A stretch of 64,000 bases of DNA from assembly GCA_000004985.1 (NCBI GenBank), contig GG738875.1. The stretch is one strand, 5' to 3'. This DNA is from Naegleria gruberi. Its lineage: Eukaryota. The translations under genes and the position numbers were made by a program. Positions within the stretch are counted from its first letter, which is position 1; every line of letters starts with the position of its first letter. The notes below the pieces were generated by a model. The model was given only the letters and a program-made list of their open reading frames with translations. It searched no databases and was not told the origin of the DNA. Below, piece by piece: positions 9,419-38,519 of this stretch.

Positions 9419-9491
9419 TGCTGACGGACGGGATCGAACCGGCGACCAATGGCTTATTAGACCAACGCTCTACCGACTGAGCTACGCCAGC
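9419..9491 (-). tRNA. tRNA-Ile, anticodon AAU.
   Basis: Reverse complement is GCTGGCG TA GCTC AGTCGGTA GAGC G TTGGT CTAATAA GCCAT TGGTC GCCGG TTCGATC CCGTC CGTCAGC A. The acceptor stem pairs 7/7 with one G-U. The T-loop is TTCGATC and the anticodon loop is CTAATAA. One mismatch each in the anticodon and T stems. Confidence 0.75.
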
Positions 9492-10422: not shown

Positions 10423-13327
10423 TAGTGGACAAGAACGATACAAATCATTGCCAGCAATGTACTTTAGAGGAGCTTATGCAGCTCTTGTGGTGTATGATAT
10501 TACCGATGCAGAGTCGTTCATACAAGCCCAAAAGTGGGTGACACTAGTTCAACAAGGTAATTCGACATTAGTAATTGCTCTTGCTGGTAATAATGCGCAC
10601 TTGGAGGATAAACGTCAAGTCGAGACATTTGAAGCCAAAGCATATGCTGAAAAGCATTCACTAATTTTCATGGAAACCTCAGCCAATACTGCTCAAAATG
10701 TTAATGAAATTTTTACTGCCCTAGCTCGCAAAATGCCAGTCGATACATCAATAGAAAGGGTGATGGCTTTTGAAGCTGTGAGGGAAAATTGGACAGTATT
10801 CAAATCACTTCAAGAAAACTTTAAAAGTGACAGAGACATTGCACTACTTGCAATTAGGAAAAATGGGTTGGCCTTAGAATTTGTATCAGTGGAACTGAAG
10901 AATGACAAATTATTGGTTCTTGATGCTGTGGAAAATCAAGGAATTGCATTGCAATATGCTTCAATGAATTTGAGGGCAGATAAGGAAGTGGTTCTTAGAG
11001 CTGTCAAAAATAATGGACTTGCTCTACAATATACCACAACAGAGAATTGCTCAGATGAAAAAATTATTCTGGATGCTATTGAAAATGATGTAACCTCCTT
11101 TCAGTTTGCTTCACAGGAAAAAAGATTTGATAAGGAATTTGTGAGAAAGGCAATATCAAAGGATTGTAAATGTTTTAATTTTACAGAATTGCAACACGAT
11201 ACTGAAATAATTCTCTTTGCTTTAGAGAATGGATATTCTCTCAAATATGCAAGCATGGAGCAACGAAACCATAGACCCTTGATATTGGAAGCAGTTAAAA
11301 AAGATGGAAATGCTCTTCGCTATGCCCCAAAATATTTACAAGACATTGAGCTAATTTTTATAGCCATTAATAATGGATTTACAAATCCAAAAAACATACT
11401 CACAAACGAACATTTAATATTGCAAGGTTTTACAAGAAATGTTATCAGTTTTCCAGATATTCCGAAAGAATTCAGAAACAACAAACAAATTTTGATGGAA
11501 ATAATAGCAAGATTTACAAAATTATATAATAACTCAAAGATGGAATATTACCAAGACATATCAAAATTTCAATCACTCTACAAGAGTGATCTAAAAATTT
11601 CATTAATGAATAATATTTTACAATCTTCAATAGATTCACATGCTATTACATGTTATGAATTGTTTCATGACTTGATTTTAATCGACACATTAAAAAGAGA
11701 AGAGCTCAGAAATTGGGGAAGGAAATGTAGAATGACATTGATATGGGCACAATATATTCCTGGCTTGTTACAATACTTGTCAAAAAACCATGTACCAAAT
11801 ATTGATTTAGAATTGGCAGTATATTTTTCCAATTACAGACCTAGAGGTACCTTTTCATTTAAAAGAACATATCCAAAGGAAATGTGGATAGAACTTAATC
11901 TTCTCAAGGAGATTTCTAATCATATCACCAAATTTAATTTAAGATCAGAATTAATTTTGGATTATCCATTTTACAATTCAAATTACTACCTGTTACTAGA
12001 TTTTATTACTAATATCATTAATGGATCTTTACAGGAAGTTAATTTCCAAAATATCAATTCATACACGTTTAATTTTTCAGATATATTTAACAAGGAATGT
12101 ACGGATACATTAATTTCAACTTGGATATCCCTAGATAATTTTCCAAAATTGTCCTCAATTTCAGAATTATTGAATCAAAATAAGGAAATATATTTGGAAG
12201 AGAGAGGTTATGCTTCTATAATACATTCAAAGTTTCCACTCTATATACCCACATCTATACTTGGAAAGGGCGCTGAAGGTATCGTTTTTGAATGTTATAA
12301 TGTTAAAGAAAGAAAAACGGTGGCATTCAAATTGAACTTTCAATATAATTTACAAGATCATGTAATAGTTGAATTATTAATGAAAAATATTGATGGAATA
12401 ATTCACTGTCATGAATGTAACGTATTTGAATATTCTGACAAGAAAATCAAATATATCATTATGGAAAAAGGGGAAAAAATTGGGCCTGCACTAGAGGACA
12501 TTTACAATAGAAACAATAATATGCTTGACAAGGAATCACTCACAACAATTCTACAAATGTTTGTACAAATATTACTGGCAGTGAATAATTTACATAACAA
12601 TAATTTTGCCCATCGAGATTTGAAACTCGCTAATATGGTTCTAGTAGGTGATACTATTAAGATTATCGATTTGGATTCCTCGAGAGTTATCATGACTAAC
12701 AAATCTTGCACATTGAATATTGGCACACTGAAATATATTGCCCCAGAATTATATAATAATGAAAGTGAAAGAATTTTACAGAACTTTGAAATATCCAAAC
12801 AATGTGACATGTTTTCTTTGGGATGTATATTATTGGAAATACTCATTCATCAACCCTTAATGTTAGACTCTGAATATTGTAATCAGGAGCAAATGGAAGA
12901 TGATCTAAATATCCAGCATTTTACAAATTCTGGATTGTACTTTCATCAAGCTGTTGGCACACAATACCTTCAACACAAGCTCCATCATGCAATCAAAATG
13001 CAAATAGATAGAATGGTTGATTCTTCATTAGAAATTAATACAATCCTCTCTAGGATAATCATTACAATGATTCAACAAAATCCAAACCTCAGAGGCAATT
13101 GTGCTATGTATTTACAAATATTTAAAGAACTATTATTGTCCTTAAACAATAGTCAACCACTAATACTACCAGAAACTTTAACCAAAAATCTACTTGATTT
13201 TAATAAGAATATTATTACATTGTTAAAAGAAGAAAACTTGCAGCTTAAAACAAAGAATGAACAATTGGAAATGGAATTGATTAAATTAAGAGAAGAATTA
13301 ACTTTTCTTTCACACAAGAATAAATAG
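10423..13327 (+). CDS. Exon 3 of the Rab5-like fusion gene: rest of the GTPase domain, about seven DUF4116 repeats, a Ser/Thr-type protein kinase domain and a C-terminal coiled coil.
   Basis: Intron 2 is 10358..10422 (65 nt, ...ttatag). SGQERYKSLPAMYFRGA continues the Rab domain, with the NKxD motif present as AGNNAHL and ETSANT as the SAK equivalent. No CAAX/CC tail. DUF4116 repeats follow (SDRDIALLAIRKNGLALEFVS...). Kinase motifs are GKGAEGIV, VAFK, HRDLKLANMVL, an IIDLDSS DFG variant and YIAPE. The tail is QLKTKNEQLEMELIKLREEL. Confidence 0.65.
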
Positions 13328-15366: not shown

Positions 15367-15670
15367 TTGTATTTGTTATTTGTTTTGTTATTGGTTGTTT
15401 TTTTTTGTGTTGGTTTTTAGCAAACGCGTTTGTGTTGCGGGTTTTAAAGCTAGCAGGTTGTGCAAGCAAAAAGTTTTGCTGTGGTGAGTCACCAGGCGCA
15501 ATTATTTTTGTGACCTGCGTATGTGTAAAATTATTAAATTGTGTCAATGCTTCTTTTTTGAATTGGATAGGCTGCTTTTGAATCAGAGTTTATTTATCTA
15601 TCGATTATTAATAGAAAATATAATATTATAGAGCCTGTTGAAACTTTAGGAATATTGGTAAAAAGATAAA

Positions 15671-15788
15671 AGACTACAGCACCACAGGTTCCCAAGTTGT
15701 CTCCAACCTCAGTACTGATGTGGCTCGACGATGCTTAACTTCTCAAATCGGACGGGATGAGGTGCATTCATCGTGATATGGCCGTAGT
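15671..15788 (-). rRNA. 5S ribosomal RNA gene, 118 nt.
   Basis: Reverse complement GACTACGGCCATATCACGATGAATGCACCTCATCCCGTCCGATTTGAGAAGTTAAGCATCGTCGAGCCACATCAGTACTGAGGTTGGAGACAACTTGGGAACCTGTGGTGCTGTAGTC carries the conserved 5S blocks CCCGTCCGAT, GAAGTTAAGC, AGTACT and TGGGAA. Helix I terminal pairing is present. A TTTTATCTTTTT Pol III terminator follows. Confidence 0.85.
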
Positions 15789-16556
15789 CATACCATTAAT
15801 TAAAATGTGAAATATAAATGTATCTGGTTTGAGTTTATTTTAATAAGAAACCGATTCTTGGACATTTTGCATTACCACGAATTGTGAATCGGTTTTGAAT
15901 TCCAATTGAAGTATGTTGTGTGACTACGGAAAAGTGGCATTGATATTTGTGAAATTCCTTCTAGATTAAACAATTGAGCAAACATTGAATGAATCTCTTC
16001 AAGTTAGGCTGTGGTAAACATTGCAAATATTGAGTCAATTTGATATGTAAAGAGTGAAGCTAAGAATGCTTTTAAGATCTTTGATGCTTCTGAAGATGAA
16101 GAAGAAATTGACTTCCAAAATGTGTATTAAATCGAGTTCAACACCTTGTTATCGTAAATCGCATTCTGTTGTAATCACGTTTCCACCTCTTCATCACCAC
16201 AAACAATCACCAATATGTATTAATTTTGGAAATTCATTTGATTTTATTAAGGATTTTCCAATTAATATATTAGGAGAGAAAATAATTTTTGTACACATGA
16301 GAATTATTGGTGTGTTCGAATATTGATATCTTATTCTTATGTATTCAACACCTTGTTGATGATGTTGTTGATGGAGAAGGCTAGTTGGTTGGCTTGTTTT
16401 CAGTGATAATCATGCTGAGTTGGATTGAGAGTGTATTTGTTTTTTTTTGATTTGTTTATTGTAAAGTTACAGAGTGATACGCTTGGTGATTTTTCAAAGG
16501 CTTTCGAATACAAACCTGCAGGAAAATTCGTTAGTCTCAAAACTAGCCATTTAAAA

Positions 16557-21372: not shown

Positions 21373-22446
21373 ATGTCTCAACAACCGTCAATGAATCACA
21401 CAACTTGGTTTGATCAAGATTTGCTGTTGGCCAATATATTTCTCTATTTACATCCGTATGAATTATTTGATAATTCTAAATTATCTTCATGTAGAAATGT
21501 TTGTAGATCATGGAATGGTTTAATTTGTGGTGAAGAATTTTGTAAATTTTATTTTGAAAACTCGTTTTGTTGTTATTCGTCCGAACCTTTTATTAATCAG
21601 TTAAATTGTAATCAATTGTTTGATACTTTAGATGATGCACAATTTAATTGTTTTATGGATGAGGATGATGATATTCAAGAGGTAAAGCCTATTAATACGT
21701 TAACAATTCAAGAATCTATTAAACAATTTGAACATGTGGCAATTACTAAAATTGGATATGAATTCAATAATTTAAATTGGAAAAATAATTTTTACAAACG
21801 ATTTCTAACACTAATTGCATATTTAAAAGATATTGATTCTGCAATTTGGAGTGTAACTGAATCATTATTAAAACCATTAGATGATTCAAAAGTATTTAAA
21901 TTAAATAATTTATTGAAAAAGTGGAAACTATCAAAATTATTATCCAGTAATATATTTGAAATCAATGAAAAGACAATGTTATTTTTTAATGATGATGGAA
22001 TACCATATGTATTAAGATCCATTCGTAAAAGATTAATTCTTGACAACATTGAGATTATGAACAATATTAAATTTGGATTTGACAAGGAAAGGATCACTAA
22101 AGTCCTTCCACAACTTGACAAAAAACAAGACCAACAAGTGTTGTGTGATGTAATGTGTGGATTATTTCCAAAATTAGTAGAAAAAAAGAAGAAACTACTA
22201 ATTAAAAGGCCACTAACAGAATTCATGATGTTTGTCAGGAGTGAAAGAGAAAAAATTAAACAAGAAAATCCTACAATAACTAATATGGATATTATTAAAA
22301 AAATGGCACACATTTGGAAAGAAATGGATGATAATGAAAAGCAAATTTATGTTGAACAAGCAATTCAAGAAAAATTGAAATATCAAAAACAAAAAGAAGA
22401 ATTCATTTATTGTATTAGTGGATTAGATGAAAATGTTAGTGAATAA
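21373..22446 (+). CDS. HMG-box DNA-binding protein.
   Basis: C-terminal HMG box KRPLTEFMMFVRSEREKIKQENPTITNMDIIKKMAHIWKEMDDNEKQIYVEQAIQEKLKYQKQKEEF, with conserved F..F, W and Y positions. ATG at 21373. Confidence 0.7.
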   Translation: MSQQPSMNHTTWFDQDLLLANIFLYLHPYELFDNSKLSSCRNVCRSWNGLICGEEFCKFYFENSFCCYSSEPFINQLNCNQLFDTLDDAQFNCFMDEDDDIQEVKPINTLTIQESIKQFEHVAITKIGYEFNNLNWKNNFYKRFLTLIAYLKDIDSAIWSVTESLLKPLDDSKVFKLNNLLKKWKLSKLLSSNIFEINEKTMLFFNDDGIPYVLRSIRKRLILDNIEIMNNIKFGFDKERITKVLPQLDKKQDQQVLCDVMCGLFPKLVEKKKKLLIKRPLTEFMMFVRSEREKIKQENPTITNMDIIKKMAHIWKEMDDNEKQIYVEQAIQEKLKYQKQKEEFIYCISGLDENVSE

Positions 22447-23283: not shown

Positions 23284-23675
23284 TTATGTGAATGAGAAAC
23301 CTTGGCATGGGAAGGATAGTGAAATTTATGTTCGATCGACATGATATTATTAATCTCTTCAAACTTCAAAATGGTACACGATTCCGATAACCTCTCATAT
23401 GAATTTTAAATTTGTCGAACAGGGCATCGTGCTGCTGTAGGGGAAGGATTGTGATCAATGAGAGAAATGATCACACAACAACACTCTGAATCATCGTTTT
23501 GCATTTTTTTTATTTAAATTTGCTTATTGTAAAGGCACTAATACAAACTTCTTTTCAGAATGTTGAATGTTACTAGCTAGTCAAAGTTTCAAGCATTACA
23601 TATGCAACACTCATAAACTTAGCAACAAAATTTTGAGATGATGCCAAACTTGAGAATGTTGGTAAAAAGATAAAA

Positions 23676-23816
23676 GACTACAGCACCACAGGTTCCCAAG
23701 TTGTCTCCAACCTCAGTACTGATGTGGCTCGACGATAAAAGACTACAGCACCACAGGTTGCTTAACTTCTCAAATCGGACGGGATGAGGTGCATTCATCG
23801 TGATATGGCCGTAGCC
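23676..23816 (-). rRNA. Second 5S rRNA copy carrying a 23-nt internal duplication and a diverged 5' end. Probable pseudogene or variant.
   Basis: Nearly identical to 15671..15788 over most of its length, with the same 3' flank ttggtaaaaagataaaagac. An extra aaaagactacagcaccacaggtt is inserted after gctcgacgat. The 5' helix-I strand changes from gtagtc to gtagcc. Confidence 0.6.
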
Positions 23817-24065
23817 ATTTATAACCTTAAATAGTGAAATATGAATCAGTTCAACAATTGAAATTGATAACTTTTTGAAATTTAATATATGGGAGCTTCT
23901 ATATGAAACTAAATAACAAACCCATCACGTACCCTGTTGACAGTGATTAAACGCTTGGCAGTGTATTTTTCTTGTAATTTAGCAAAAGATGTTTGCAACG
24001 TTTTGTAATAAAATAATACGATAAGACAAGATAGTATAAATAAAATATTTTTATCATGAATGATA

Positions 24066-24189: not shown

Positions 24190-24828
24190 CTAGACCTTCA
24201 TTTTGGGTAAAATGCTTAGCTCCTTTTCCAATTGTTTCTCATATGATGCTTGGAAACGAGTGTAATTATCCAACATGTTGTGTTCACAAGCTGTTTGAAT
24301 TCTATCAAATATTTCAGGAGTGATGGCAAAGAGGAAACTCATATCTTGTGGATTTGTGGAAGTTTGCTTTGGAGAAATATTCAATTTTGGAGAAGGTGAA
24401 ACATTTCCATTTTTAGAAGCAAAATTAATGGTACTGTCTTTTAGGGATTTGAAGATTTTCTCAATTTCTGGAATTCCAAAATCCTTTCTTGAAATGTTCA
24501 ATTCAAGAGGAGCTCCAATTCGAATATAAGTATTACAAATATTGTAAAATAATTCTCTTCTTTGTTTTTCTGATTTGATTGTTTTGAATTTCTCAATGGC
24601 ATTCCACATCATGACATCTTCACATGCAAAACATTTTTCTGAGAATTTCAGAAAGAGATTATTCCACTTTTCATTCAGTAAAATCTTTCGAATGCTACTT
24701 TCAGAAGGTTTCGAATGTTGAAGTTTAGAATCAACTGATGGAGTGCTTTCTGTATGTTGTTTCTTGTCAGATTTGAATCTTTGAAGGAAGAATACAGGAT
24801 ACGTGAATGAAATTAATGTATCCCACAT
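24190..24828 (-). CDS. RGS (regulator of G-protein signalling) domain protein, copy A.
   Basis: RGS-box pattern: LLNEKWNNLFLKFSEKCFACEDVMMWNAIEKFK...ELFYNICNTYIRIGAPLELNIS......MLDNYTRFQASYEKQL. ATG at 24826-24828. Lies immediately downstream, on the same strand, of a 7TM gene. Confidence 0.65.
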   Translation of the reverse strand: MWDTLISFTYPVFFLQRFKSDKKQHTESTPSVDSKLQHSKPSESSIRKILLNEKWNNLFLKFSEKCFACEDVMMWNAIEKFKTIKSEKQRRELFYNICNTYIRIGAPLELNISRKDFGIPEIEKIFKSLKDSTINFASKNGNVSPSPKLNISPKQTSTNPQDMSFLFAITPEIFDRIQTACEHNMLDNYTRFQASYEKQLEKELSILPKMKV

Positions 24829-24924
24829 ATTTCCAATTAAAATTGTAATCGTCCATGGGAAATAATAATCAATACTTTACAAAATATTACAATTATTATT
24901 CTAATCTCAGATATATATTACTTA

Positions 24925-26289
24925 CTAGGTTGTAAAAATAGTGAATAAAGAAGGCACAGCATACAATACAATAAAAAAAACCCATCCAAATATCACAACA
25001 ATAACCTCAATCTTAATATGCCAAACATCTCTCTTGGTAAAGAATGAAAACAATAACAGTAAAACTCCAATAAATCCATAAAAGGCAAAATAACTAATGA
25101 AAATATTTTGATTGTAAGATCCAGTTCCACATCCAGATGGTGAAAATAAATAACTATCAATTGTAAAGCTATTTCTCGAATTGCTTGATGCACCTCCAGT
25201 ATTTTGAAAATTGAAATAGTCAATTGTGCCAATAATTAGGAAAATTAAAATGTGTAGAGCTAGTAATAATCCATAATAAATGAAAATAAATTTGGAGCTC
25301 ACTAGAAATCTCATAATGGAAATTAATTTGCCTCTTTCGAATGATTCTAATAGAGTTTCTTTTCTGAAAATCATTTCGTCTTCAAGTGGTTTGTCAGTTG
25401 TGATATCTTTTGGTTCGATTGTGAATTGTGACATAATGCTTGAAGTTCTGCCAACTGTCAATGCTGACAATGAGGTTCTATTGGTAGCTTTCAATAATCC
25501 AGATGAGCTAGAAACACTGCTTGTTTCTGAATGAACTTTCAATTCTTTCATTTCAGTGTCAGTTGTCAATGGGTTGTTGGCAGATGGAGGAGTATTATTC
25601 AATGTTTCCAATATATCCAAACTCACATTTGCATCCATAAGTGGTTTCATATTTTCTGATGATGTTGTTGCATGCAAGTCATATTGTCTCTTTCCAATCC
25701 TCACTTTCAATTCGTTCAGTTTGGTCAATACCAACAATCTAATACATCTCAATATGACAGTATTCGAAAGTGCAGGCACAGCCAAATAATAGATTAGTGA
25801 AAATATGAAACATGGATAAATCTTTCGTCCAATTAACACTCTAGTCATTAATACGAAAGTATAGGTCCATCCAATAATTGCTCCCATGACCATCAATGCT
25901 GGATTCCTGGCAACCTGCAAATAATTCACAACTTGTTTGTGTTCCTTTTGGAGAATATGCAACATTCTCAATTTATAAACTAAACCTCCAACCGAAACTA
26001 ATAACAAACATGTGTGAATAAAGAGGATAATTGCTGAAATAACAACAGCTGATGTGGTATCATCACACAATCCCTTCTCACTCTTGTTTCCTTGTGAAAG
26101 GAGGAGTGGATGACAAACTGTGCTGTCATTATACATGTTGGTAGAGTTGACTATTAGTGAGGTGTTGATATTGAGCGTTGTGTGGATGTTGAAAATGGGC
26201 ACATGCATGTTGGTGACATGGAACGTCAACGTGGATAAAAATCCATCAAACATGCCATTTGTCTCTTCGGAATGAGCATTCAAATCCAT
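24925..26289 (-). CDS. Multi-pass (6-7 TM) GPCR-like membrane protein, copy A. Cys-containing N-terminal ectodomain and a long Ser/Thr-rich loop between TM3 and TM4.
   Basis: Hydrophobic segments VISAIILFIHTCLLLVSVGGLVY, ALMVMGAIIGWTYTFVLMT, FIFSLIYYLAVPALSNTVIL, FIFIYYGLLLALHILIFLIIG, IFISYFAFYGFIGVLLLLF and VIVVIFGWVFFIVLYAV. The first ATG is 26287-26289; the ORF-track start is a TTG. Confidence 0.6.
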   Translation of the reverse strand: MDLNAHSEETNGMFDGFLSTLTFHVTNMHVPIFNIHTTLNINTSLIVNSTNMYNDSTVCHPLLLSQGNKSEKGLCDDTTSAVVISAIILFIHTCLLLVSVGGLVYKLRMLHILQKEHKQVVNYLQVARNPALMVMGAIIGWTYTFVLMTRVLIGRKIYPCFIFSLIYYLAVPALSNTVILRCIRLLVLTKLNELKVRIGKRQYDLHATTSSENMKPLMDANVSLDILETLNNTPPSANNPLTTDTEMKELKVHSETSSVSSSSGLLKATNRTSLSALTVGRTSSIMSQFTIEPKDITTDKPLEDEMIFRKETLLESFERGKLISIMRFLVSSKFIFIYYGLLLALHILIFLIIGTIDYFNFQNTGGASSNSRNSFTIDSYLFSPSGCGTGSYNQNIFISYFAFYGFIGVLLLLFSFFTKRDVWHIKIEVIVVIFGWVFFIVLYAVPSLFTIFTT

Positions 26290-26535
26290 TTTCAAGTTGG
26301 CCAATTGAAAAAGGTGATATGAGTTGATTAGTTTTTTTTTCTTCTTTAAAATTGTTATGGTTCACCATTGAGCGACTTTGTCCTCTCAATGAAAGTGAAC
26401 CTTGATTGTGAAATCTTGATAAAATTTATTTGGGAATCTGATTTCTAATTTGTGCTATTCCATTAGTGGCCCTGAAAAACTATTCGAAAGAAGACTATTA
26501 GTTGTAGATTGGTAGAGTTGAATGTTGGTTGTTTA

Positions 26536-27165
26536 TTACACTTTAAGCTTGGCTACGATATCCAATTCCTTTTCCAATTGTTTCTCATACGATGCTTGGA
26601 AACGAGTATAATTATCCAACATGTTGTGTTCACAAGCAGTTTGAATCTTGTTGAATATTTCAGATGTTATTGAGAATAACAAATTATTTGGGTCAACCTT
26701 TGCATTGTTATTCGAAACCTTTGGAGAAACATTTCCATTCTTTGAGGCAAAATTAATGTTACTCTCCTTTAATGCATGATAAATGTCCATAATTTCTGGA
26801 ATTCCAAAATCCTTTCTTGAAATGTTTAATTCAAGAGGAGCTCCAATTCGAATATATGTATTACAAATATTGTAAAATAATTCTCTTCTTTGTTTTTCTG
26901 ATTTGATTGCTTTGAATTTCTCAATGGCATTCCACATCATGACATCTTCACATGAGAAGGATTTCTCTGCGAATTTCAGAAAGAGATTATTCCACTTTTC
27001 ATTCAGTAAAATCTTTCGAATACTACTCTCACCAGAAATATTTACACTGGAAACTGAAGGATTGGTCGAGAGAGCTGGTTCAATGGAATTACCCTCTGAC
27101 TTGTTTGATTTGAATCTTTGAAGCACAAAAACTGGATAACTGAATGAAATGAGTGTATCCCACAT
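26536..27165 (-). CDS. RGS domain protein, copy B, paralog of 24190..24828.
   Basis: MWDTLISFSYPVFVLQRFKS... and the RGS box are almost identical to copy A. ATG at 27163-27165. Confidence 0.65.
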   Translation of the reverse strand: MWDTLISFSYPVFVLQRFKSNKSEGNSIEPALSTNPSVSSVNISGESSIRKILLNEKWNNLFLKFAEKSFSCEDVMMWNAIEKFKAIKSEKQRRELFYNICNTYIRIGAPLELNISRKDFGIPEIMDIYHALKESNINFASKNGNVSPKVSNNNAKVDPNNLLFSITSEIFNKIQTACEHNMLDNYTRFQASYEKQLEKELDIVAKLKV

Positions 27166-27249
27166 GCATCCAATTAAAATTGTAATTGTCCATGGGAAAT
27201 AATAATCAACACTTTAAAATGTTAAGTTATCAAAACTTAATGATACCTA

Positions 27250-28536
27250 CTATGTGGTAATAATTGTAAATAAGGAAGGAATACTAAAAGCAAGAACAAT
27301 AGCAGCCCAAAACAAGTTAATAATCACAACTTCAATCTTAATATTCCACACGTCTCTCTTTGCAAAAAAGGCAATTATGGATAGTAAAATTCCAATTAAT
27401 CCATAAAAGCAAAAGTAGCTAATGAATATATATTGATTGTAAGCTCCAACTCCACATCCAGATGGTGAAAATAAATAACTATCAATTGTAAAACTATTTC
27501 TCTTTTGATTTGTTTTTACAGAAGTATCATTTTGATAATTGAAATAGTCAATAATGGCAATGATAAAGTAAATGCTCAAGTGAAATCCAATGACCACAAC
27601 ATAGCTCAATAAAACAAATTTGGAGCTCACGAGAAATCTCATGATGGAAAGTAATTTTCCTCTTTCGAATGATTCTAATAGAGTTTCCTTTCTGAAAATC
27701 ATTTCCTCTTCCACATTATTTTCATCATCATCTGCATTACTATCCTTAGGTTCAATTACAAATTGTGAGAGAATACCTGAAGTTCTGCCAACTGTTAATG
27801 CTGACAAATTTGTACTGTTCTGATTTCCAGCTAAACTACTATTCGAAATGGATAAACTATCAAGAGACGTAACTGTTTCCAATTCCTTTTCCACTTGATT
27901 TTGTGAAATATTCGTGTTTTCCTCAATCATGGATTTCATATTGTCCGATGATGTTGTTGCATGCAAATAATATTGTCTCCTTCCAATCCTCACTTTCAAT
28001 TCGTTCAGTTTCGTCAATATCAACAATCGAATACATCTCATAATAATAGTATTCGAAAGTGCAGGAATAGCAATAAAATAGATTAGTGAAAATATGAAAC
28101 ATGGATAAACCTTTCGTCCAATTAACACTCTCCCCATCAACATGAACGTATAAGACCATCCAATCAGTGCTCCAATTACCATTAATAATGGATTCCTTGC
28201 AACCTGCAAATAATTCACAACTTGTTTTTGTTTCTTCTTTAAAACATGCAACTTTCTCAATTTATAAACTAAACCTCCAACCGAAACCAAAACGAGCATT
28301 GTGTGAAGAAACAAAACAATGGCAGAAATTACTGTGGAAGAGGTCATGTCATCACACAATCCCTTCTCACTCCTATTTCCAAGAGCTAATAGGAGAGGAT
28401 GACACACAGCACTATCATTGTATTTGTTATAGGTATTGTTGTTGTTAATGGTGATGGAATCGTTGGAAAGAGTTTCGAATATGTTGTAGGAAAGAGATGT
28501 AATGACATCAGCATGTGGTTGGTGGTGAAAGGACAT
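27250..28536 (-). CDS. Multi-pass GPCR-like membrane protein, copy B, paralog of 24925..26289.
   Basis: Same TM architecture and the shared blocks VCHPLLLALGNRSEKGLCDD...VVNYLQVARNP...IMRFLVSSKF. ATG at 28534-28536. Confidence 0.6.
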   Translation of the reverse strand: MSFHHQPHADVITSLSYNIFETLSNDSITINNNNTYNKYNDSAVCHPLLLALGNRSEKGLCDDMTSSTVISAIVLFLHTMLVLVSVGGLVYKLRKLHVLKKKQKQVVNYLQVARNPLLMVIGALIGWSYTFMLMGRVLIGRKVYPCFIFSLIYFIAIPALSNTIIMRCIRLLILTKLNELKVRIGRRQYYLHATTSSDNMKSMIEENTNISQNQVEKELETVTSLDSLSISNSSLAGNQNSTNLSALTVGRTSGILSQFVIEPKDSNADDDENNVEEEMIFRKETLLESFERGKLLSIMRFLVSSKFVLLSYVVVIGFHLSIYFIIAIIDYFNYQNDTSVKTNQKRNSFTIDSYLFSPSGCGVGAYNQYIFISYFCFYGLIGILLSIIAFFAKRDVWNIKIEVVIINLFWAAIVLAFSIPSLFTIITT

Positions 28537-29049
28537 TTGATGACGTTTTTCGCTGTTGCTATTTCAAATGCGAGCTCACACGCCAAGGTTCAAGTCGTTA
28601 CGAAACTAAACTAATCTCTCCAAGTTGTGAGTTGTTTTCTTTTTGTTTAGTTTTGCACCACGACATGCAACAATGAACCTGAATGTTGTGGCCGCTACTT
28701 TCCAATCATGAAATTGCAAAAGCCACAGATGGAATATCGGAACAGCACACAACGTTTGAAGTTGCGACACAGAGTTGACTGATAACATATTGCCATCACA
28801 GCCTAGTGGTGAACCATGTCTAAATAAGGTGGATTTTGGTTCCATTTTGATTAAAGTATTTTAGAAATTATTAGAAAGAAGTGAACCTTGATGGAGGAAC
28901 TGAGTACAATTTATATTTGCTCTTGTAAACGTTTAGGATTCCGACTGTAGTTTACATTAGAAAAGTATGTGATTAGAAAATAAAGCCGATCACAATTTTC
29001 TTTCATCTTTCGCTTTTTGTTTCTCCATTAAGGAAGTAACTAGAACTTC

Positions 29050-29105
29050 ATAATTGGTAAAATTCCCAACTCCTCCAATTATTTCTCATACGATGCTTGG
29101 AAACG
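29050..29105 (-). pseudogene. Relic of the 3' end of a further RGS-gene copy.
   Basis: ccaattatttctcatacgatgcttggaaacgagtg matches the C-terminal coding end (RFQASYEKQ) of the RGS genes at 24222..24262 and 26572..26612, then diverges. Confidence 0.35.
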
Positions 29106-29207
29106 AGTGTTTCAAATACGATCACTTTTTCAATCTCATCGTTAATGAAAACAAGAATAGAAAACTTCCCAAAGTGATTTTAAAAAAAAACAAAGAAACC
29201 TTATAAT

Positions 29208-29719: not shown

Positions 29720-32026
29720 ATGCGCAAGCTTACCCACACTGTATTAAAATCACATTCTTCTGCAGTGATTAATGCTCGCAAAGTGCCCTCTATCATCAAA
29801 TCAAATAATATTTTGAATGTTTCATGGCATCCATGGAAAGCTTTTCAAACAACAAGTCCTTGGCAAAATCAATCCTTCACACGGGACGGTTCTTCGGTTC
29901 TTGGGGGAAAGCCACCAACAGAGACAACAGACAACAAATCCATCATCACCCTAGCATTGAAAGACTTTGACACCTGGTCGGTTGCACAAGTATCTGCTGT
30001 GTTGATGTTGAGCAAACAGGAAGGGGGTATCGGTTTGTCCGAGGAGAAGATCAAACCACTCTATGATTCTGCTTTTGATGGACTGGCTCTGAGCTATATT
30101 GCAACAGGTATTAAGGGAAATAGATTAGAAGGAAAGAGTGAAATCAGTTGTATCGAACATACCATCAAGACAATTACAAACAGTAAGGACTTTGCTTCAG
30201 TGCCGAAAACTACTTGCACAACTGTTGTTGAATGGGTTGCTACCAAGTTGACACCTAAACCATATAGGTTGTGGAACACTCAAGAGTTAGATGATTTTCT
30301 TAGCAAACCAAAAGCCGAGGGAGGTGCTGGATTGAGTGATGAGTCCGTGGTCTACCTCCATCGTGCCAAAATCGACAACCTAACACTTGCCCGAATTGTT
30401 ACTGTCATTAAGGAAGAAAGAATGAAAGGCCTTACAGAAGAAGAATGTATTGAGCTTGCCACAAAGATAATGACAAGCGATAAGGACTTTGCTTTAGTAC
30501 CAGAATCTACTTGTAAAGCTGTCACTGAGTGGGTTGCTGCCAAGTTGGCTCGAAAGGCTGATGAGAGAGGTACTTTCATTAACATACCCTCCGATTTGCT
30601 TGGTCATTGGAAGCGCCAGTTGGGAGGAGAAATATCTGAAGGTTTGAGAAAGGAAAGAACAAATGCAAAATATGACTACCTCCGTAATTTACATGATCCA
30701 ACAAACATGAAAAAACTGGAAAATTTCATTGGAACATATATTGATCTTCCTGTCTTTGGAAAGGAAGATAGTGATTTATCTCCAAAAGACTTTGATCCAA
30801 ATGATAAATTTCTTTTAACTCAGCAACGATTTGATATACTGAAAAAGGTTGTGAATGGAAGCACTGGATTGGTTTTATCAGGTCCTCATGGAATTTCAAA
30901 GTCATACACACTTTATCTAATAGCTGCCTATGCCTTTGTAAATTCCATTCCAGCACTCTATGTTCCAAAGTGTCGTTCCTGGCTCAGCACTTTCAACATA
31001 GATAAGGAAGTTGGTGCCAATAACTACTTGCGTAGATTGTTCTTTTCGCTGAATAGTGACATTCTTTCTACGACCCAAATTATGGAATTACAGAAATCAA
31101 GAAATGTGGTCGAACATTTGAGCACCCATATTGGAGATAAGGGATCTATGTTCTATTTGTTTGATGAACACAATGAATTATTCAGACCTGACTATTACAA
31201 TAAGATTCCTGCTTCTTTTGCTTATTTTCAAGATTTTATCAGATGGACAGGAGTTACATCAGGGAATTACACAGTTACTATCTATTGTGGAAGTGCTCAT
31301 AGCTCCTTCGAAGACCATTTACCAGGAGGAGAAAGAGGAAGGGTAGTTAGAATCACTCCTCCAACAATGACAGAATTTGAACAACTTGTTTCAGCTGTGG
31401 GTTTGAATCCAAAGGATAAAAGAATAGCTCATGTAACAGGAAGAATTCCAAGAGAGTTGAAATACTTGGCTGACCATTTGAAAGGTAAAAAGGGTACTGA
31501 TGAAGATTTCAACCATTTTATCACAGTAAGGCAGGGAGAATATGCTTCTAGATTGCGCTCATTAGTTAACAAAATGGACAAAGAGGAGAATGATGAGTTT
31601 TTAAAAACACTTGAAGATCTTTTTACTCTGGGTCTTTTCGATGGAAGACCTTGCACTGTTTCAGGAAATGTTTACGATATGGGTTTACTATACAAGGATT
31701 CTGATCAAAACCTTTATATTATTAATGATCCAGCAAATAGATGCTTATTCCATCACTACTGCAGCAAAGTTGACATGCCACACATACCCAAGAATATTTC
31801 TGTTTCACAGAAAGGAGCACTGTTTGAAAAATACTTGTTAAGACGAGAGTATGGACTTTGTAAACATTTGGATGGAAAATTCTATGTAACAAACAAGTTG
31901 AGTACAACCACAACATCCACCTTATCATATGAAGTTAACGAACATGCAAGTTTGGATCTAAAGGATTTACATTCCCTCAATCGAAGAAACTATTTGCGGG
32001 GAACAGGAGTACCACTACCAGAGTAG
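29720..32026 (+). CDS. Tandem SAM-like domains followed by a P-loop NTPase (AAA+/STAND-like) domain, 768 aa.
   Basis: Two ~100-aa repeats carry SAM-like signatures: WSVAQVSAVLMLSKQEGGIGLSEEKIKPLYDSAFDGLALSYI and WNTQELDDFLSKPKAEGGAGLSDESVVYLHRAKIDNLTLARI. Walker A is LVLSGPHGISKSYTL and Walker B is SMFYLFDEHNE. ATG at 29720. Confidence 0.65.
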   Translation: MRKLTHTVLKSHSSAVINARKVPSIIKSNNILNVSWHPWKAFQTTSPWQNQSFTRDGSSVLGGKPPTETTDNKSIITLALKDFDTWSVAQVSAVLMLSKQEGGIGLSEEKIKPLYDSAFDGLALSYIATGIKGNRLEGKSEISCIEHTIKTITNSKDFASVPKTTCTTVVEWVATKLTPKPYRLWNTQELDDFLSKPKAEGGAGLSDESVVYLHRAKIDNLTLARIVTVIKEERMKGLTEEECIELATKIMTSDKDFALVPESTCKAVTEWVAAKLARKADERGTFINIPSDLLGHWKRQLGGEISEGLRKERTNAKYDYLRNLHDPTNMKKLENFIGTYIDLPVFGKEDSDLSPKDFDPNDKFLLTQQRFDILKKVVNGSTGLVLSGPHGISKSYTLYLIAAYAFVNSIPALYVPKCRSWLSTFNIDKEVGANNYLRRLFFSLNSDILSTTQIMELQKSRNVVEHLSTHIGDKGSMFYLFDEHNELFRPDYYNKIPASFAYFQDFIRWTGVTSGNYTVTIYCGSAHSSFEDHLPGGERGRVVRITPPTMTEFEQLVSAVGLNPKDKRIAHVTGRIPRELKYLADHLKGKKGTDEDFNHFITVRQGEYASRLRSLVNKMDKEENDEFLKTLEDLFTLGLFDGRPCTVSGNVYDMGLLYKDSDQNLYIINDPANRCLFHHYCSKVDMPHIPKNISVSQKGALFEKYLLRREYGLCKHLDGKFYVTNKLSTTTTSTLSYEVNEHASLDLKDLHSLNRRNYLRGTGVPLPE

Positions 32027-33790: not shown

Positions 33791-33840
33791 NNNNNNNNNN
33801 NNNNNNNNNNNNNNNNNNNNNNNNNNNNNNNNNNNNNNNN
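33791..33840. other. Assembly gap, 50 N, at the 5' boundary of the duplicated NTPase segment.
   Basis: Run of N. The flanking left sequence is not homologous to copy 1; the right flank is. Confidence 0.95.
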
Positions 33841-34420
33841 ATCTATGTTCTATTTGTTTGATGAACATAATGAATTATTCAGACCTGACTATTACAATAA
33901 GATTCCTGCTTCTTTTGCTTATTTTCAAGATTTTATCAGATGGACAGGAGTTACATCAGGGAATTATACAGTTACTATCTATTGTGGAAGTGCTCATAGC
34001 TCCTTCGAAGACCATTTACCAGGAGGAGAAAGAGGAAGGGTAGTTAGAATCACTCCTCCAACAACGACAGAGTTTGAACAACTTGTTTCAGCTGTGGGTT
34101 TGAACCCAAAGGATAAAAGAATAGCCCATGTAACAGGAAGAATTCCAAGAGAGTTGAAATACTTGACTGACCATTTGAAAGGTAAAAAGGGTACTGATGA
34201 AGATATCAATCATTTTATCACAGTAAGACAGGGAGAATATGCTTCTAGATTGCGCTCATTAGTTAACAAAATGGACAAAGAGGAGAATGATGAGTTTTTA
34301 AAAACACTTGAAGATCTTTTTACTCTGGGTCTTTTCGATGGAAGGCCTTGCACTGTTTCAGGAAATGTATACGATATGGGTTTACTATTCAAGGATTCTG
34401 ATCAAAACCTTTATATTATT
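33841..34420 (+). pseudogene. Second partial copy of the SAM-NTPase gene, from the Walker B region onward. Its 5' part is lost in the assembly gap and its 3' part is interrupted by an insertion.
   Basis: About 95% nucleotide identity to 31141..31725 (SMFYLFDEHNELFRPDYYNKIPASFAYFQDF...). Runs into a TGA right after the insertion junction. Confidence 0.55.
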
Positions 34421-35264: not shown

Positions 35265-35283
35265 CTGGATCATTAATAATATA

Positions 35284-35848
35284 CTACTGCACCAAAGTTG
35301 ACATGCCACACATACCCAAGAATATTTCTGTTTCACAGAAAGGAGAGCACTGTTTGAAAAATTCTTGTTAAGACGAGAGTATGGACTGGAAATTCTATGT
35401 AACGAACAAGTTGAGTACAACCACAACATCCACCTTATCATATGAAGTTAACGAACATGCAAGTTTGGATCTAAAGGATTTACATTCCCTCAATCGAAGA
35501 AACTATTTGCGTGGAACAGGAGTACTATTCATTCCAGAATCTGAGACTTTCCCAAGCTTTGATTATGCTATTGTTATATACAAAGAGAAATCAGTAGAAA
35601 TCTTTCTGAAACAAAGCACCATTTCTACTGTTGAATCTCATTATTGTCATAGTAATGGCAAAACAGATGTGGATAATTTACTGGAACGTCTTTATGTTTT
35701 AAATAGAGAAGGAAAGGTAATGAAAAGGAAACAAAACGTTCCAGAACAATATCATTTCTCATTGCTTGAATTGATACTTCATGGAATTGTTGGAAGTGAA
35801 GAAACCAAAGTTGAATTGATACTTTTTAGAAATAGACAAGAAATGAAG
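35284..35848 (+). pseudogene. Continuation of NTPase copy 2 after the insertion, with a C-terminal extension not present in copy 1. Its end is lost in the gap at 35849.
   Basis: 35284..35530 matches 31756..32010 of copy 1 (KVDMPHIPKNISVSQKG...LNRRNYLRGTG), with a small deletion. It then continues as VLFIPESETFPSFDYAIVIYKEK..., whereas copy 1 ends at a stop. Confidence 0.45.
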
Positions 35849-35898
35849 NNNNNNNNNNNNNNNNNNNNNNNNNNNNNNNNNNNNNNNNNNNNNNNNNN
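35849..35898. other. Assembly gap, 50 N, between the NTPase copy-2 tail and 7TM copy 3.
   Basis: Run of N. Confidence 0.95.
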
Positions 35899-35908
35899 AA
35901 ATCTCTTT

Positions 35909-36703
35909 TCAATATTTCCCATTTGGTTTTGTTTCTGAAAAGAATTTCCATATCCAATTGTTCATCTTGTAAATTCCTGTAGAGCTGTCTTGTGTGGTTG
36001 ATAATGAAAATGAGGACAAACTCTTTTGTTTTTCAATATTGTCAGAGAGTCCACTTGATGATGATGTGTTTTCTCCAGTATTAGATTTAGCTGTTGATGA
36101 GCTAGTTGGATTTAGTTCAGTTTCGGTTGTTTCAGTAATTTGTTTAGGATTATCTGATGATATCGAATGACGCAGTTCATATTGTCTATTACCAATCCTC
36201 ACTTTCAATTCATATAATTTTGTCAATATCAACAATCGAATACATCTCAATATGACAGTATTCGAAAGTGCAGGCACAGCCAAATAATAGATTAGTGAAA
36301 ATATGAAACATGGATAAATCTTTCGTCCAATTAACACTCTAGTCATTAATACGAAAGTATAGGTCCATCCAATAATTGCTCCCATGACCATCAATGCTGG
36401 ATTCCTGGCAACCTGCAAATAATTCACAACTTGTTTGTGTTCCTTTTGGAGAATATGCAACTTTCTCAATTTATAAACTAAACCTCCAACCGAAACTAAT
36501 AACAAGCTTGTATGAAGGAACAAAACGATAGCTGAAATAACAATGGCCGATGTGGTGTCATCACACAATCCCTTCTCACTCTTGTTTCCTTGTGAAAGGA
36601 GGAGTGGATGACAGATCGTTGAATCATTTGTACTGGGATTCGAATAGTTAGAGACCAGCAACGCATCAAATATTGCCGTAGGAAAGATCACTTTGGCAGA
36701 CAT
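35909..36703 (-). CDS. Third copy of the GPCR-like multi-pass membrane protein, N-terminal 264 aa only. The downstream part falls in the assembly gap.
   Basis: ICHPLLLSQGNKSEKGLCDDTTSAIVISAIVLFLHTSLLLVSVGGLVYKLRKLHILQKEHKQVVNYLQVARNPALMVMGAIIGW... is near-identical to copy A. ATG at 36701-36703. Confidence 0.5.
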   Translation of the reverse strand: MSAKVIFPTAIFDALLVSNYSNPSTNDSTICHPLLLSQGNKSEKGLCDDTTSAIVISAIVLFLHTSLLLVSVGGLVYKLRKLHILQKEHKQVVNYLQVARNPALMVMGAIIGWTYTFVLMTRVLIGRKIYPCFIFSLIYYLAVPALSNTVILRCIRLLILTKLYELKVRIGNRQYELRHSISSDNPKQITETTETELNPTSSSTAKSNTGENTSSSSGLSDNIEKQKSLSSFSLSTTQDSSTGIYKMNNWIWKFFSETKPNGKY

Positions 36704-36893: not shown

Positions 36894-38519
36894 TTACCAC
36901 CTACTTGAGAAGGCAAATATTTCAATCTTGGTGAAATCAAAAGGACGACCACCTTGCAAAGTACAGGTTCCTTTCTTGGAAATTTCTGCAAATGATTTTA
37001 CATAAATAAAGTAGTTTGAATCAGTTTTTGGAGTTGCTTTTTGTTTTTCACATGTGAGAATCAAGTGATTGTTAATTATTTCAGCTCGCTCAGAGTCTTT
37101 TCCAATTGGGTTTTCAAAATAAACAGATTGTTTCTCAGATTCACTCCAAATAATGGCAAGAAAGCCATAACATGTTGATTGCTCATTCACTTCCTTCTTA
37201 AATTCCTCAATAGATGTTTTTGGGTTGATGGTAAGAATCAATTGATTTTGATATCTGAAACGTGTTTGCAATTCAAAATGATATAGTTGATTTGAGTCTA
37301 ATAAGGCACATTTCATATTGTTAATTGATATTTTGATTTCAAGAGGTTTTGTTTTTGAAAACTTGTTGCCTTGGAAATAGTTCAAATTTGGGAAAATGGC
37401 ACCTGACAAGTCACATTGGTTGAAACTGTTCTCCCAATCATCACTGAAACAATATCCAAACATATTACAGGATTCAAATTCACAATTTTCAAATTTAGCA
37501 CCTGATTGCTTCCAAAATTCACAGTCTTTGAATAAGGTATTTACAAATACTTTTCCTTTCAAAGATTCTTGATCGAATGATTTCTTTTCAAATTTTAAAA
37601 TTGGGGTACAGTTTCTAAATGTTGCATTTTCGGGATTGGAATTAGTGAAATCTATATTTTGAAAATCACAATTTTCGAAACATGCATATTTTAAATTGCA
37701 TGAGGTCAGATTTGCTGCAGAAAAGTTTCTACAAGATCTGAATTGTGCACTCTCAAGATTAGAATTACTCAAATTTGCAGAATTAAAATCACATTCTTTG
37801 AAAAGTACTTTTTTCAGACTACAAGAGCTCAAGTTTACCGAACTAAAATTACACGATTCAAATGTTGTGTCATCCATTCGATTTGAATTTAGTTTGGCTG
37901 ATGTGAAATTTGAATATTTGAAAAAAGAATTGTCCATTTTTGAAGAACTCAAATCACAATTCGAAAAATCAGCATTTGATAGTGTTGCTTTGCATAAAGA
38001 GGAATCACTCATTACACAATCTTTGAACGAAATTTTCTGTGCTTGTTCTAGTTTAACTCTATCCAAATTAATTCTCTTCAAATTTCGACCAGTAAAGTCC
38101 AAAATAGGTACATGCATTATCTCATGTTTAACAATCTCCAACACTGCACTGCTGACATCAAGTGTAGTGCTGTTACTTGTTTCAGATTCCAAGATTTTCA
38201 ACAAATTCACACAATTCAACTCTTTGCAAGCATTTATCAATTCTAATTTTTGATATTCTGATAAATCTCTATTTACCATTCCGTACTTTAACCAGTTAAA
38301 GATCATGTTAAATATTTTGTGTGGACAATTAACAAAATACACAGGATCAGTGAATAAATTGGATGGTGTTATTGTAGGTTGAATTTGTTGTTGTGTGAAA
38401 AGTTTAGAAAAGAAGGTGTCTGTTTCTCTTCCACTTTTAATTAATTCATCAGGAATGATGGTGCGGATCGTACCACCAACATTCAAATGAACGGGTTGTG
38501 AGGTAGTGATTGTGGACAT
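36894..38519 (-). CDS. KCTD9-like protein: T1-type BTB domain plus pentapeptide repeats.
   Basis: N-terminal VHLNVGGTIRTIIPDELIKSG (KCTD-type LNVGG). The central region has consecutive A(N/D)LxS pentapeptide repeats: ANLSN SNLES AQFRS CRNFS AANLT SCNLK YACFE NCDFQ NIDFT. Confidence 0.65.
   Translation of the reverse strand: MSTITTSQPVHLNVGGTIRTIIPDELIKSGRETDTFFSKLFTQQQIQPTITPSNLFTDPVYFVNCPHKIFNMIFNWLKYGMVNRDLSEYQKLELINACKELNCVNLLKILESETSNSTTLDVSSAVLEIVKHEIMHVPILDFTGRNLKRINLDRVKLEQAQKISFKDCVMSDSSLCKATLSNADFSNCDLSSSKMDNSFFKYSNFTSAKLNSNRMDDTTFESCNFSSVNLSSCSLKKVLFKECDFNSANLSNSNLESAQFRSCRNFSAANLTSCNLKYACFENCDFQNIDFTNSNPENATFRNCTPILKFEKKSFDQESLKGKVFVNTLFKDCEFWKQSGAKFENCEFESCNMFGYCFSDDWENSFNQCDLSGAIFPNLNYFQGNKFSKTKPLEIKISINNMKCALLDSNQLYHFELQTRFRYQNQLILTINPKTSIEEFKKEVNEQSTCYGFLAIIWSESEKQSVYFENPIGKDSERAEIINNHLILTCEKQKATPKTDSNYFIYVKSFAEISKKGTCTLQGGRPFDFTKIEIFAFSSRW

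What the first reader, a model, noticed from the sequence alone, without database searches (positions are those of the whole stretch)
24190..28536. Tandem duplication of a GPCR-like 7TM gene followed directly by an RGS-domain gene
Two head-to-tail copies of the module [multi-TM receptor-like protein, then an RGS-box protein 96 and 84 nt downstream on the same strand] lie at 27250..28536+26536..27165 and 24925..26289+24190..24828. A third receptor copy is at 35909..36703 and an RGS relic at 29050..29105. Pairing a 7TM receptor with its own GAP is the logic of plant AtRGS1-type 7TM-RGS proteins; here the two halves are separate ORFs, each with its own ATG. In both copies an in-frame TAG precedes a possible GTA donor, so fusion by splicing is not supported by the sequence. 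They may still be co-transcribed. The paralogs have diverged mostly in the N-terminal ectodomain and the long intracellular loop, which fits receptor diversification.
Basis: partly seen in the sequence, partly recalled or inferred. Interest (0 to 1): 0.68.

Follow-up and report, generated by a model that had tools for sequence, protein, structure and literature searches.

The report
Two tandem Naegleria 7TM-RGS genes

Summary
The ORFs, coordinates, tandem duplication and RGS identity are all real. The central interpretation, that receptor and RGS are separate genes and splicing is not supported, is wrong. The window is Naegleria gruberi.

In both copies the G of the terminal TAG is the first base of a GT donor (GTAAGT / GTAGGT). 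Removing a 51-nt intron (24875..24925) or a 39-nt intron (27212..27250) gives uninterrupted ORFs of 682 and 653 aa.

The unspliced "receptor" ORF has only six TM helices. The seventh is encoded by the rest of the "spacer" plus the first codons of the "RGS ORF".

Support for splicing:
- The public model NAEGRDRAFT_68910 already uses this exact junction for copy A.
- Both tandem N. lovaniensis homologues carry a phase-2 intron at the same codon.
- A second strain shows 10% divergence in the copy-B intron, against 0/46 in the adjoining "spacer" and 1.7% in the exons.

7TM-RGS proteins are a known, biochemically studied Naegleria family (28 in N. fowleri; Bosch et al. 2022). The only new item is that public models NAEGRDRAFT_68912 and NAEGRDRAFT_49971 (copy B) should probably be merged.

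The parts
24926..26289 (-). Gene A (NAEGRDRAFT_68910), exon 1. It encodes a short N-glycosylation-rich and Cys-rich ectodomain, TM1-TM3, a disordered cytoplasmic loop of about 150 aa, and TM4-TM6. The start codon is uncertain: the public model starts at the Met at 26136.
   Evidence: ORF; TM segments; P0001 is 100% identical to it.
24875..24925 (-). Gene A intron: 51 nt, phase 2, GTAAGT...TAAAG, 18% GC, with stops in all three frames. The G of the apparent TAG stop is the first intron base.
   Evidence: The junction ...FTIFTT|Y|IDYYFPW... is identical to the public protein P0001.
24190..24874 (-).
   Evidence: dN/dS is 0.16 for residues 455-490.
27251..28536 (-). Gene B exon 1 (public model NAEGRDRAFT_68912, 428 aa, annotated as a gene on its own): ectodomain, TM1-TM6 and the long loop.
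27212..27250 (-). Gene B intron: 39 nt, phase 2, GTAGGT...TAAAG, at the same codon position as in gene A and in the N. lovaniensis homologues.
   Evidence: There are 4/39 substitutions against a second strain, compared with 0/46 in the adjacent exon-2 stretch. The intron part is diverged from copy A with a 12-nt indel, while the 47 nt after the AG are nearly identical.
26536..27211 (-). Gene B exon 2 (public model NAEGRDRAFT_49971 covers only 26536..27165, 209 aa): TM7 (about 27121..27192), a linker, the RGS box (about 26563..27033) and the stop codon.
35899..36703 (-). 5' part of a third paralog (public model NAEGRDRAFT_68917). 36131..36688 aligns in frame to copy A residues 54-219 (88% aa; 93% nt over 36149..36613). 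Homology continues in shifted frames to the assembly gap at 35849..35898. It is incomplete because of the assembly, and possibly frameshifted.
29046..29108 (-). Degenerate 3'-end fragment of a 7TM-RGS gene ('NTRFQASYEK*LEELGILPIMKF*') with an internal stop: a pseudogene relic.

Best explanation
The locus holds two tandem, lineage-specific paralogs of the Naegleria 7TM-RGS gene family. Each is a two-exon gene on the minus strand.

Exon 1 encodes a small glycosylated, Cys-containing ectodomain, TM1-6 and a long disordered cytoplasmic TM3-TM4 loop. A very short phase-2 intron (51 or 39 nt) begins inside the apparent TAG stop. Exon 2 encodes TM7, a linker and a cytoplasmic RGS box.

The mature protein (682 and 653 aa) is a GPCR-fold seven-helix receptor with a covalently tethered GTPase-accelerating domain. 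By analogy with N. fowleri 7TM-RGS proteins and Arabidopsis AtRGS1, the RGS box accelerates GTP hydrolysis on one or more of Naegleria's many G-alpha subunits, some of which self-activate. This holds them off at the membrane. An extracellular cue sensed by the 7TM part is expected to change that GAP activity or the protein's location.

Shown here: the gene structure, the 7TM plus RGS architecture, conservation and purifying selection. Inferred: actual splicing of copy B, GAP activity, ligand control and G-alpha partners.
For: 1. Splicing restores the frame.
- Only the 51-nt (A) and 39-nt (B) GT..AG introns give full-length ORFs that retain the conserved spacer sequence encoding TM7. A 111-nt alternative in B is also in frame but deletes TM7.

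2. Public and orthologous models agree.
- Public protein P0001 (EFC43219 / NAEGRDRAFT_68910, Pfam RGS) contains exactly the junction TT-Y-IDYYFPW.
- The N. lovaniensis tandem homologues C9374_002444 and C9374_002445 have a phase-2 intron at the same codon, 48 and 129 nt long.
- Prokaryote-style gene calls on related contigs (P0006, P0008) end at ...ITTL, the same spot.

- It is nearly identical between A and B while the intron part has diverged with an indel.
- dN/dS is 0.16 there.
- Against a second strain (L002), divergence is 0/46 in that stretch, 4/39 in the intron and 1.7% in the exons (Fisher p = 0.005). The spliced CDS has 27 nucleotide but only 9 amino-acid differences and no stops.

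4. Topology needs the fusion.
- There are six hydrophobic helices in exon 1 and a seventh across the junction.
- With seven helices, the N-glycosylation sites and conserved Cys residues face out. Lys and Arg cluster mainly in the predicted cytoplasmic loops, though the 5-residue ECL1 carries two.

5. Structure.
- The AF2 model has pLDDT 79.6 and pTM 0.74.
- The C-terminal part matches RGS16, RGS8 and RGS4 with target TM-scores of 0.6-0.78.

6. The RGS box.
- PF00615 scores above the gathering cut-off.
- The Glu of the RGS16 'SEEN' motif and the Asn of 'EVNID' are aligned.
- E489, N530, D606 and R610 (P0001 numbering) are nearly invariant in 50 family members.

7. Family and literature.
- There are 172 representatives, and 47 of 50 sampled members have RGS.
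- N. fowleri encodes 28 7TM-RGS proteins whose RGS domains are GAPs for Nf G-alpha subunits (PMC9283941).
Against: - No transcript evidence was available, so splicing of copy B rests on sequence logic only.
- A 39-nt intron is far below the N. gruberi mean of 203 bp (PMC8296547), and the public annotation keeps copy B as two genes.
- No exact fused-B protein exists in the protein collection.
- The residue aligned with the Asn of the RGS16 'SEEN' motif is Asp here. Its effect on GAP activity is unknown.
- No GPCR Pfam family matches the 7TM domain.
- The ligand and the G-alpha partner are unknown.
Confidence: 0.88

Rival explanations
1. One reading: receptor and RGS are two separate genes or cistrons. 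Each is translated from its own ATG, possibly co-transcribed, forming a non-covalent receptor plus GAP pair.
For: Each half is an intact ORF with its own ATG. The public annotation treats copy B that way (NAEGRDRAFT_68912 and NAEGRDRAFT_49971).
Against: - The receptor ORF alone has six TM helices. The RGS ORF would start in the middle of a conserved hydrophobic helix.
- The 46-48 nt upstream of the 'RGS ATG' are conserved as coding sequence.
- Canonical splice sites lie at a position conserved across paralogs and species.
- Copy A's public model and every full-length orthologue are fused.
Confidence: 0.04
2. Only copy A is a working fusion gene. Copy B's 39-nt intron is too short to be spliced efficiently, so B is a gene in the process of fission or decay, or is expressed mainly as a truncated 6-TM product by intron retention.
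For: - The 39-nt intron is unusually short against the 203-bp mean.
- The gene predictor did not join the two parts.
- No fused-B sequence is in the databases.
Against: - Both B exons are intact over 1.96 kb. dN/dS between A and B is 0.31.
- Between two strains, copy B has 18 silent and 9 replacement differences and no stops. GT, AG and the 39-nt length are all preserved.
- Exon 2 upstream of the ATG is perfectly conserved between the strains.
- The B intron contains a CTTAAC branch-point-like motif (reading it as a branch point is my own inference).
- Authors mapping N. fowleri RNA-seq set the minimum intron length to 30 bp, based on an assessment of predicted genes.
Confidence: 0.07
3. The apparent tandem duplication is an assembly artefact: two haplotypes or collapsed repeats placed in tandem.
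For: The neighbouring 29-36 kb region has two 50-N gaps and near-identical duplicated segments (98%).
Against: - A and B are only about 78-85% identical at DNA level and 69% at protein level, with many indels. That is far too diverged for alleles.
- No gap lies between them.
- An independent metagenome contig reproduces copy B specifically.
- N. lovaniensis also has a tandem pair.
Confidence: 0.01

Closest known systems
Naegleria fowleri 7TM RGS proteins (Nf 7TM RGS1-4 and 24 others; Bosch, Jeck & Siderovski, J Biol Chem 2022, PMC9283941)
   Same: - Same genus and same architecture: seven TM helices with a C-terminal RGS box in one polypeptide.
- Same sequence family. N. fowleri FDP41_005079 is a family hit (its cluster representative P0029 has E 1.4e-28 over TM4-TM7 plus RGS).
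- RGS boxes of that family are demonstrated GAPs for Nf G-alpha subunits, binding the AlF4 transition state.
   Different: - The four characterised N. fowleri proteins have large ectodomains (EGF repeats, lectin-like domains, GPS motif). A and B have only a short ectodomain of about 30-80 aa and a long TM3-TM4 loop.
- No biochemistry exists for the N. gruberi proteins.
Arabidopsis AtRGS1 (plant 7TM-RGS; Chen et al. 2003; Urano et al. 2012, PMC3386157)
   Same: A 7TM domain is tethered to a cytoplasmic RGS box. The RGS box acts as a membrane GAP for a self-activating G-alpha and is regulated by an extracellular cue and endocytosis.
   Different: - No detectable sequence relationship of the 7TM part was established here.
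- The named relatives examined are all Heterolobosea.
- Plants have one such gene. Naegleria has dozens, alongside 30-44 G-alpha subunits.
Trichomonas vaginalis 7TM/5TM-RGS proteins (Bradford et al. 2013; Urano et al. 2013, PMC3865004)
   Same: An excavate protist with TM-RGS fusions acting as GAPs on fast-exchanging G-alpha subunits.
   Different: Trichomonas lacks G-beta-gamma and GPCRs. Sequence relatedness was not tested here.
Class C GPCR transmembrane domains, including GPR158, which docks RGS7-Gbeta5 (PDB 7ewp, 7she)
   Different: - Sequence identity is only 7-13%.
- There is no Pfam 7tm_3 membership.
- In GPR158 the RGS is a separate protein. Here it is covalently fused.

Membership tests
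7TM-RGS fusion proteins (Naegleria / AtRGS1-type architecture) | Seven transmembrane helices N-terminal to the RGS box | tested here: met
7TM-RGS fusion proteins (Naegleria / AtRGS1-type architecture) | 7TM and RGS in one polypeptide | tested here: met
   The fusion is sequence-level only. A GT..AG intron restores a single frame in both copies. The public model P0001 and the N. lovaniensis orthologues are fused at the same codon. Polymorphism marks 27212..27250 as intron. No RNA evidence was available, which weakens the case most for copy B.
7TM-RGS fusion proteins (Naegleria / AtRGS1-type architecture) | RGS box on the cytoplasmic side | tested here: met
   With seven helices and the N-terminus outside (NxS/T sites and conserved Cys pairs lie in the N-terminus, the top of TM3 and ECL2), the C-terminus is cytoplasmic. 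Lys and Arg are concentrated mainly in the predicted inner loops.
7TM-RGS fusion proteins (Naegleria / AtRGS1-type architecture) | GAP activity on a cognate G-alpha; regulation by an extracellular signal | not testable with these tools
   Only shown for N. fowleri, Arabidopsis and Trichomonas relatives or analogues in the literature.
RGS domain (Pfam PF00615) | HMM score above the gathering threshold | tested here: met
   Scores are 34.7 and 40.6 bits against 23.9. The match covers profile positions 2-71 only, because a low-complexity insert of about 35 aa splits the box.
RGS domain (Pfam PF00615) | Complete helical RGS fold | tested here: met
   Foldseek aligns about 145-170 columns to RGS16, RGS8 and RGS4 with target TM-scores of 0.6-0.78 and probability 1.0. 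The helices after the insert are modelled at pLDDT of about 90.
RGS domain (Pfam PF00615) | G-alpha-contact residues (RGS4 E87/N88, N128, D163, R167; numbering from my own knowledge of Tesmer et al. 1997) | tested here: inconclusive
   E, N, D and R equivalents are present and nearly invariant in the family (P0001 E489, N530, D606, R610). The N88 equivalent is Asp. The mapping of the C-terminal pair onto RGS4 was done by eye.
G-protein-coupled receptors (GPCR fold; class C-like) | Seven-helix GPCR fold | tested here: met
G-protein-coupled receptors (GPCR fold; class C-like) | Sequence membership of a curated GPCR family | tested here: not met
   No Pfam GPCR family reached E 0.01 or better in any of 50 family members (one 7tm_3 hit at E 0.011).
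G-protein-coupled receptors (GPCR fold; class C-like) | Ligand-driven GEF activity on G-alpha | not testable with these tools
   No data.

The most novel reading that the evidence does not exclude
The stop codon built into the 5' splice site (TA|GTAAGT in N. gruberi, TT|GTAAGT giving TTG-TAA in N. lovaniensis) could be used as a switch. Regulated retention of the 39-51-nt intron would yield a truncated 6-TM protein lacking TM7 and the GAP domain. Internal initiation at the conserved Met inside TM7 might also yield a free RGS protein. Splicing would then set how much GAP is tethered to the receptor. Copy B, with its extreme 39-nt intron and split public annotation, would be the best candidate.
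Probability: 0.05. Interest if true: 0.4.

Novelty: already known. Interest (0 to 1): 0.15.

Why it matters
It has little bearing on new biology. 7TM-RGS fusion receptors are an established signalling class in plants, Trichomonas and Naegleria, and copy A has been in public databases as a fused RGS-domain protein since the 2010 genome.

Two practical points follow:
- Naegleria has very short phase-2 introns whose GT overlaps an apparent stop codon. ORF-based reading, and even the JGI gene models, can therefore split one gene into two. NAEGRDRAFT_68912 and NAEGRDRAFT_49971 should very probably be merged into one 653-aa 7TM-RGS protein.
- Counts of 7TM-RGS versus stand-alone RGS genes in N. gruberi (229 RGS genes reported) may be biased by such splits.

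The tandem, lineage-specific duplication fits the adaptive radiation of this receptor family proposed for N. fowleri.

Tried and rejected
- The look-up of encoding contigs found no record for P0001 or P0004, so the public gene table for the N. gruberi scaffold could not be read directly. Annotation status was recovered through the listing of cluster members instead.
- The first AF2 run on 8 sequences was unusable (pLDDT 47). It was repeated with 50 family members.
- Bradford et al. 2013 (PMC4871593) is not held. The de Mendoza 2014 supplements are not held. Urano 2012 does not mention Naegleria.
- Synteny between the window and the N. lovaniensis locus beyond the 7TM-RGS pair was not detectable. 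There is only a weak 29% kinase match at 45035..45457.
- Alternative acceptors were considered. The 111-nt option in copy B is in frame but deletes the conserved TM7, so it was rejected. All other AGs break the frame.
- A ciliate-type genetic code (TAG as sense) was considered and dropped, because long standard-code ORFs and the Naegleria identity explain everything.


Full report
**Identity of the window**

The window has about 33% G+C. The query built from the region is 100% identical to a 'predicted protein [Naegleria gruberi]' (P0001, EFC43219 / NAEGRDRAFT_68910). This is N. gruberi nuclear DNA, from a genome with 1.7 exons per gene (PMC8296547).

**Observation**

The same-strand gaps of 96 and 84 nt are correct. 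The two [receptor ORF + RGS ORF] modules align head to tail over about 2.1 kb (78-85% in BLAST segments) and are 69% identical as protein.

Both small ORFs score above Pfam's gathering threshold for RGS (PF00615; 34.7 and 40.6 bits against 23.9). They also hit solved R4-type RGS domains by sequence (RGS16, RGS5, RGS10).

**What the 'spacer' really is**

On the coding strand, copy A reads ...ACA ACC TAG TAAGT... and copy B reads ...ACC ACA TAG TAGGT.... In fact the G of TAG is the first base of a consensus donor (GTAAGT / GTAGGT).

I enumerated every AG acceptor downstream. A 51-nt intron in A (24875..24925) and a 39-nt intron in B (27212..27250), both ending TAAAG, give continuous ORFs of 682 and 653 aa. 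A 111-nt alternative in B is also in frame but deletes conserved sequence.

The codon split by the intron (TA|T, Tyr) is followed by IDYYFPWTITILIGN-M-WDTLISFTYPVFFL.

**Evidence that this intron is real**

1. Public protein P0001 contains exactly ...SLFTIFTTYIDYYFPWTITILIGNMWDT.... The JGI model for copy A already uses this junction.
2. In N. lovaniensis, the closest homologues are also a tandem pair, C9374_002444 and C9374_002445 (L001 8001-10012 and 10188-12464). Threading their proteins onto the DNA gives a phase-2 intron at the same codon (ITT|LVDYY), 48 and 129 nt long. They also have a second, phase-1 intron that N. gruberi lacks.
3. Prokaryote-style gene calls on related environmental contigs (P0006, P0008) stop at ...ITTL, the same place.
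4. Between copies A and B, the intron part is diverged and carries a 12-nt indel. The 47 nt after the acceptor AG are almost identical, and residues 455-490 have dN/dS of 0.16.
5. An independent metagenome contig from a closely related strain (L002, about 98% identical) covers copy B.
   - Divergence is 4/39 in the intron, 0/46 in the stretch between the acceptor and the ATG, 1.7% in the exons and 5.5% in the 5' flank (Fisher p = 0.005 for intron against exons).
   - GT, AG and the 39-nt length are all conserved.
   - The spliced CDS shows 27 nucleotide but only 9 amino-acid differences and no stop.

**Topology and fold**

The receptor ORF on its own has six strong hydrophobic helices. The seventh is supplied by exon 2. 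With seven helices and the N-terminus outside:
- the N-glycosylation sequons and conserved Cys residues are extracellular;
- a nearly invariant Cys at the top of TM3 and one in ECL2 sit where the canonical GPCR disulfide lies (inference);
- Lys and Arg cluster mainly in the predicted cytoplasmic loops, though the 5-residue ECL1 carries two;
- the RGS box is cytoplasmic.

It is predicted to be disordered.

No curated GPCR Pfam family matches any of 50 family members, whereas 47 of 50 match RGS. 'GPCR-like' therefore holds at the fold level only, and only for the spliced protein.

**RGS box competence**

The alignment to RGS16 shows the Glu of 'SEEN' and the Asn of 'EVNID' conserved, while the Asn of 'SEEN' is Asp here. 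Across the family, E489, N530, D606 and R610 (P0001 numbering) are nearly invariant. From my own knowledge of the RGS4-Gi-alpha1 complex, these correspond to E87, N128, D163 and R167. GAP activity is thus plausible but untested.

**Family and literature**

A full HMMER scan of 1.84 billion representatives found 172 relatives (24 at E of 1e-30 or better). All those with names are from N. gruberi, N. lovaniensis, N. fowleri or Willaertia magna.

Bosch, Jeck and Siderovski (2022; PMC9283941) reported 28 7TM-RGS proteins in N. fowleri. They showed that the RGS domains selectively bind transition-state G-alpha subunits and accelerate their GTPase, including self-activating ones. de Mendoza et al. 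(2014; PMC3971589) noted 7TM-RGS architectures in many bikonts. N. gruberi is credited with 229 RGS genes and more than 30 G-alpha subunits (PMC5784254; PMC8584482). The architecture and its presence in Naegleria are therefore already known.

**Duplication history**

A and B group together, and the N. lovaniensis paralogs group together. The tandem pairs therefore arose, or were homogenised, separately in each species. Overall dN/dS between A and B is 0.31. The N-terminal half of the RGS box has an unusually low dS (0.17, against 0.5-2 elsewhere), which suggests gene conversion.

**Third copy and relic**

- 36131..36688 is the 5' part of a third paralog, closest to copy A (88% aa to residues 54-219).
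- The 264-aa ORF ends at 35909 only because of a frame change. Compared with a near-identical model on another scaffold (P0155), homology continues in shifted frames up to the 50-N gap at 35849..35898.
- 29046..29108 is a degenerate 3' end with an internal stop.
- The 29-36 kb interval is gap-ridden and holds a partly duplicated 768-aa gene, so the true structure there is uncertain.

**Annotation note**

The public annotation fuses copy A but lists copy B as two genes, NAEGRDRAFT_68912 (428 aa) and NAEGRDRAFT_49971 (209 aa). No fused-B sequence exists in the collection. The evidence above argues that they should be merged. The caveat is that 39 nt is very short for a Naegleria intron and no RNA data could be consulted.

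**Verdict**

The RGS and 7TM calls are correct. The 'split 7TM + RGS' idea is an artefact of a missed mini-intron. These are ordinary members of the known Naegleria 7TM-RGS family, so interest is low.

Noticed in passing
window 26536..28536 (minus strand): The public N. gruberi annotation splits copy B into two gene models, NAEGRDRAFT_68912 (428 aa) and NAEGRDRAFT_49971 (209 aa). The paralogous copy A is annotated as one fused gene. This is probably a mis-annotation caused by the 39-nt intron.
   Followed up: yes
window 24469..24708 and the matching part of copy B (about 26800..27040): The N-terminal half of the RGS box has dS of only 0.17 between the paralogs, against 0.5-2 in the rest of the gene. 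This suggests a recent gene-conversion tract between the tandem copies.
   Followed up: partly
window 29720..32026 (+), 33841..34420 and 35283..35525: A 768-aa ORF has no Pfam hit but contains a P-loop-like 'GPHGISKS' motif. It has a partial second copy (98% and 91% identical segments) interrupted by about 860 nt and bounded by 50-N gaps at 33791..33840 and 35849..35898. This is either a recent segmental duplication or an assembly problem.
   Followed up: partly
L001 9001..9095 and 11242..11307 (N. lovaniensis): The N. lovaniensis homologues carry an extra phase-1 intron (GCGT|GSYN, in ECL2) that is absent from both N. gruberi copies. This is an intron gain or loss between congeners.
   Followed up: partly
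window 36894..38519 (minus strand): A 541-aa protein combines a weak N-terminal BTB/POZ (BTB_2) match with strong pentapeptide-repeat matches (Pentapeptide_4, E 1.5e-24). This is an unusual eukaryotic domain pairing.
   Followed up: no
window 21373..22446 (+): A 357-aa protein has a weak N-terminal F-box-like match and a clear C-terminal HMG box (E 3e-18).
   Followed up: no
window 43045..43983 (+), inside the 1623-aa ORF 40994..45865: An internal tandem repeat with a period of about 438 nt (85-88% identity between units) lies inside a very long ORF. That ORF shows a weak (29%) match to the N. lovaniensis kinase gene that neighbours the 7TM-RGS pair.
   Followed up: no
window 15641..15819 and 23646..23846: A dispersed repeat of about 200 nt at 82% identity; its nature is unknown.
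   Followed up: no
window 9419..9491 (minus strand) and 62382..62452 (minus strand): tRNA-Ile(AAT) and tRNA-Gly(TCC) genes.
   Followed up: no
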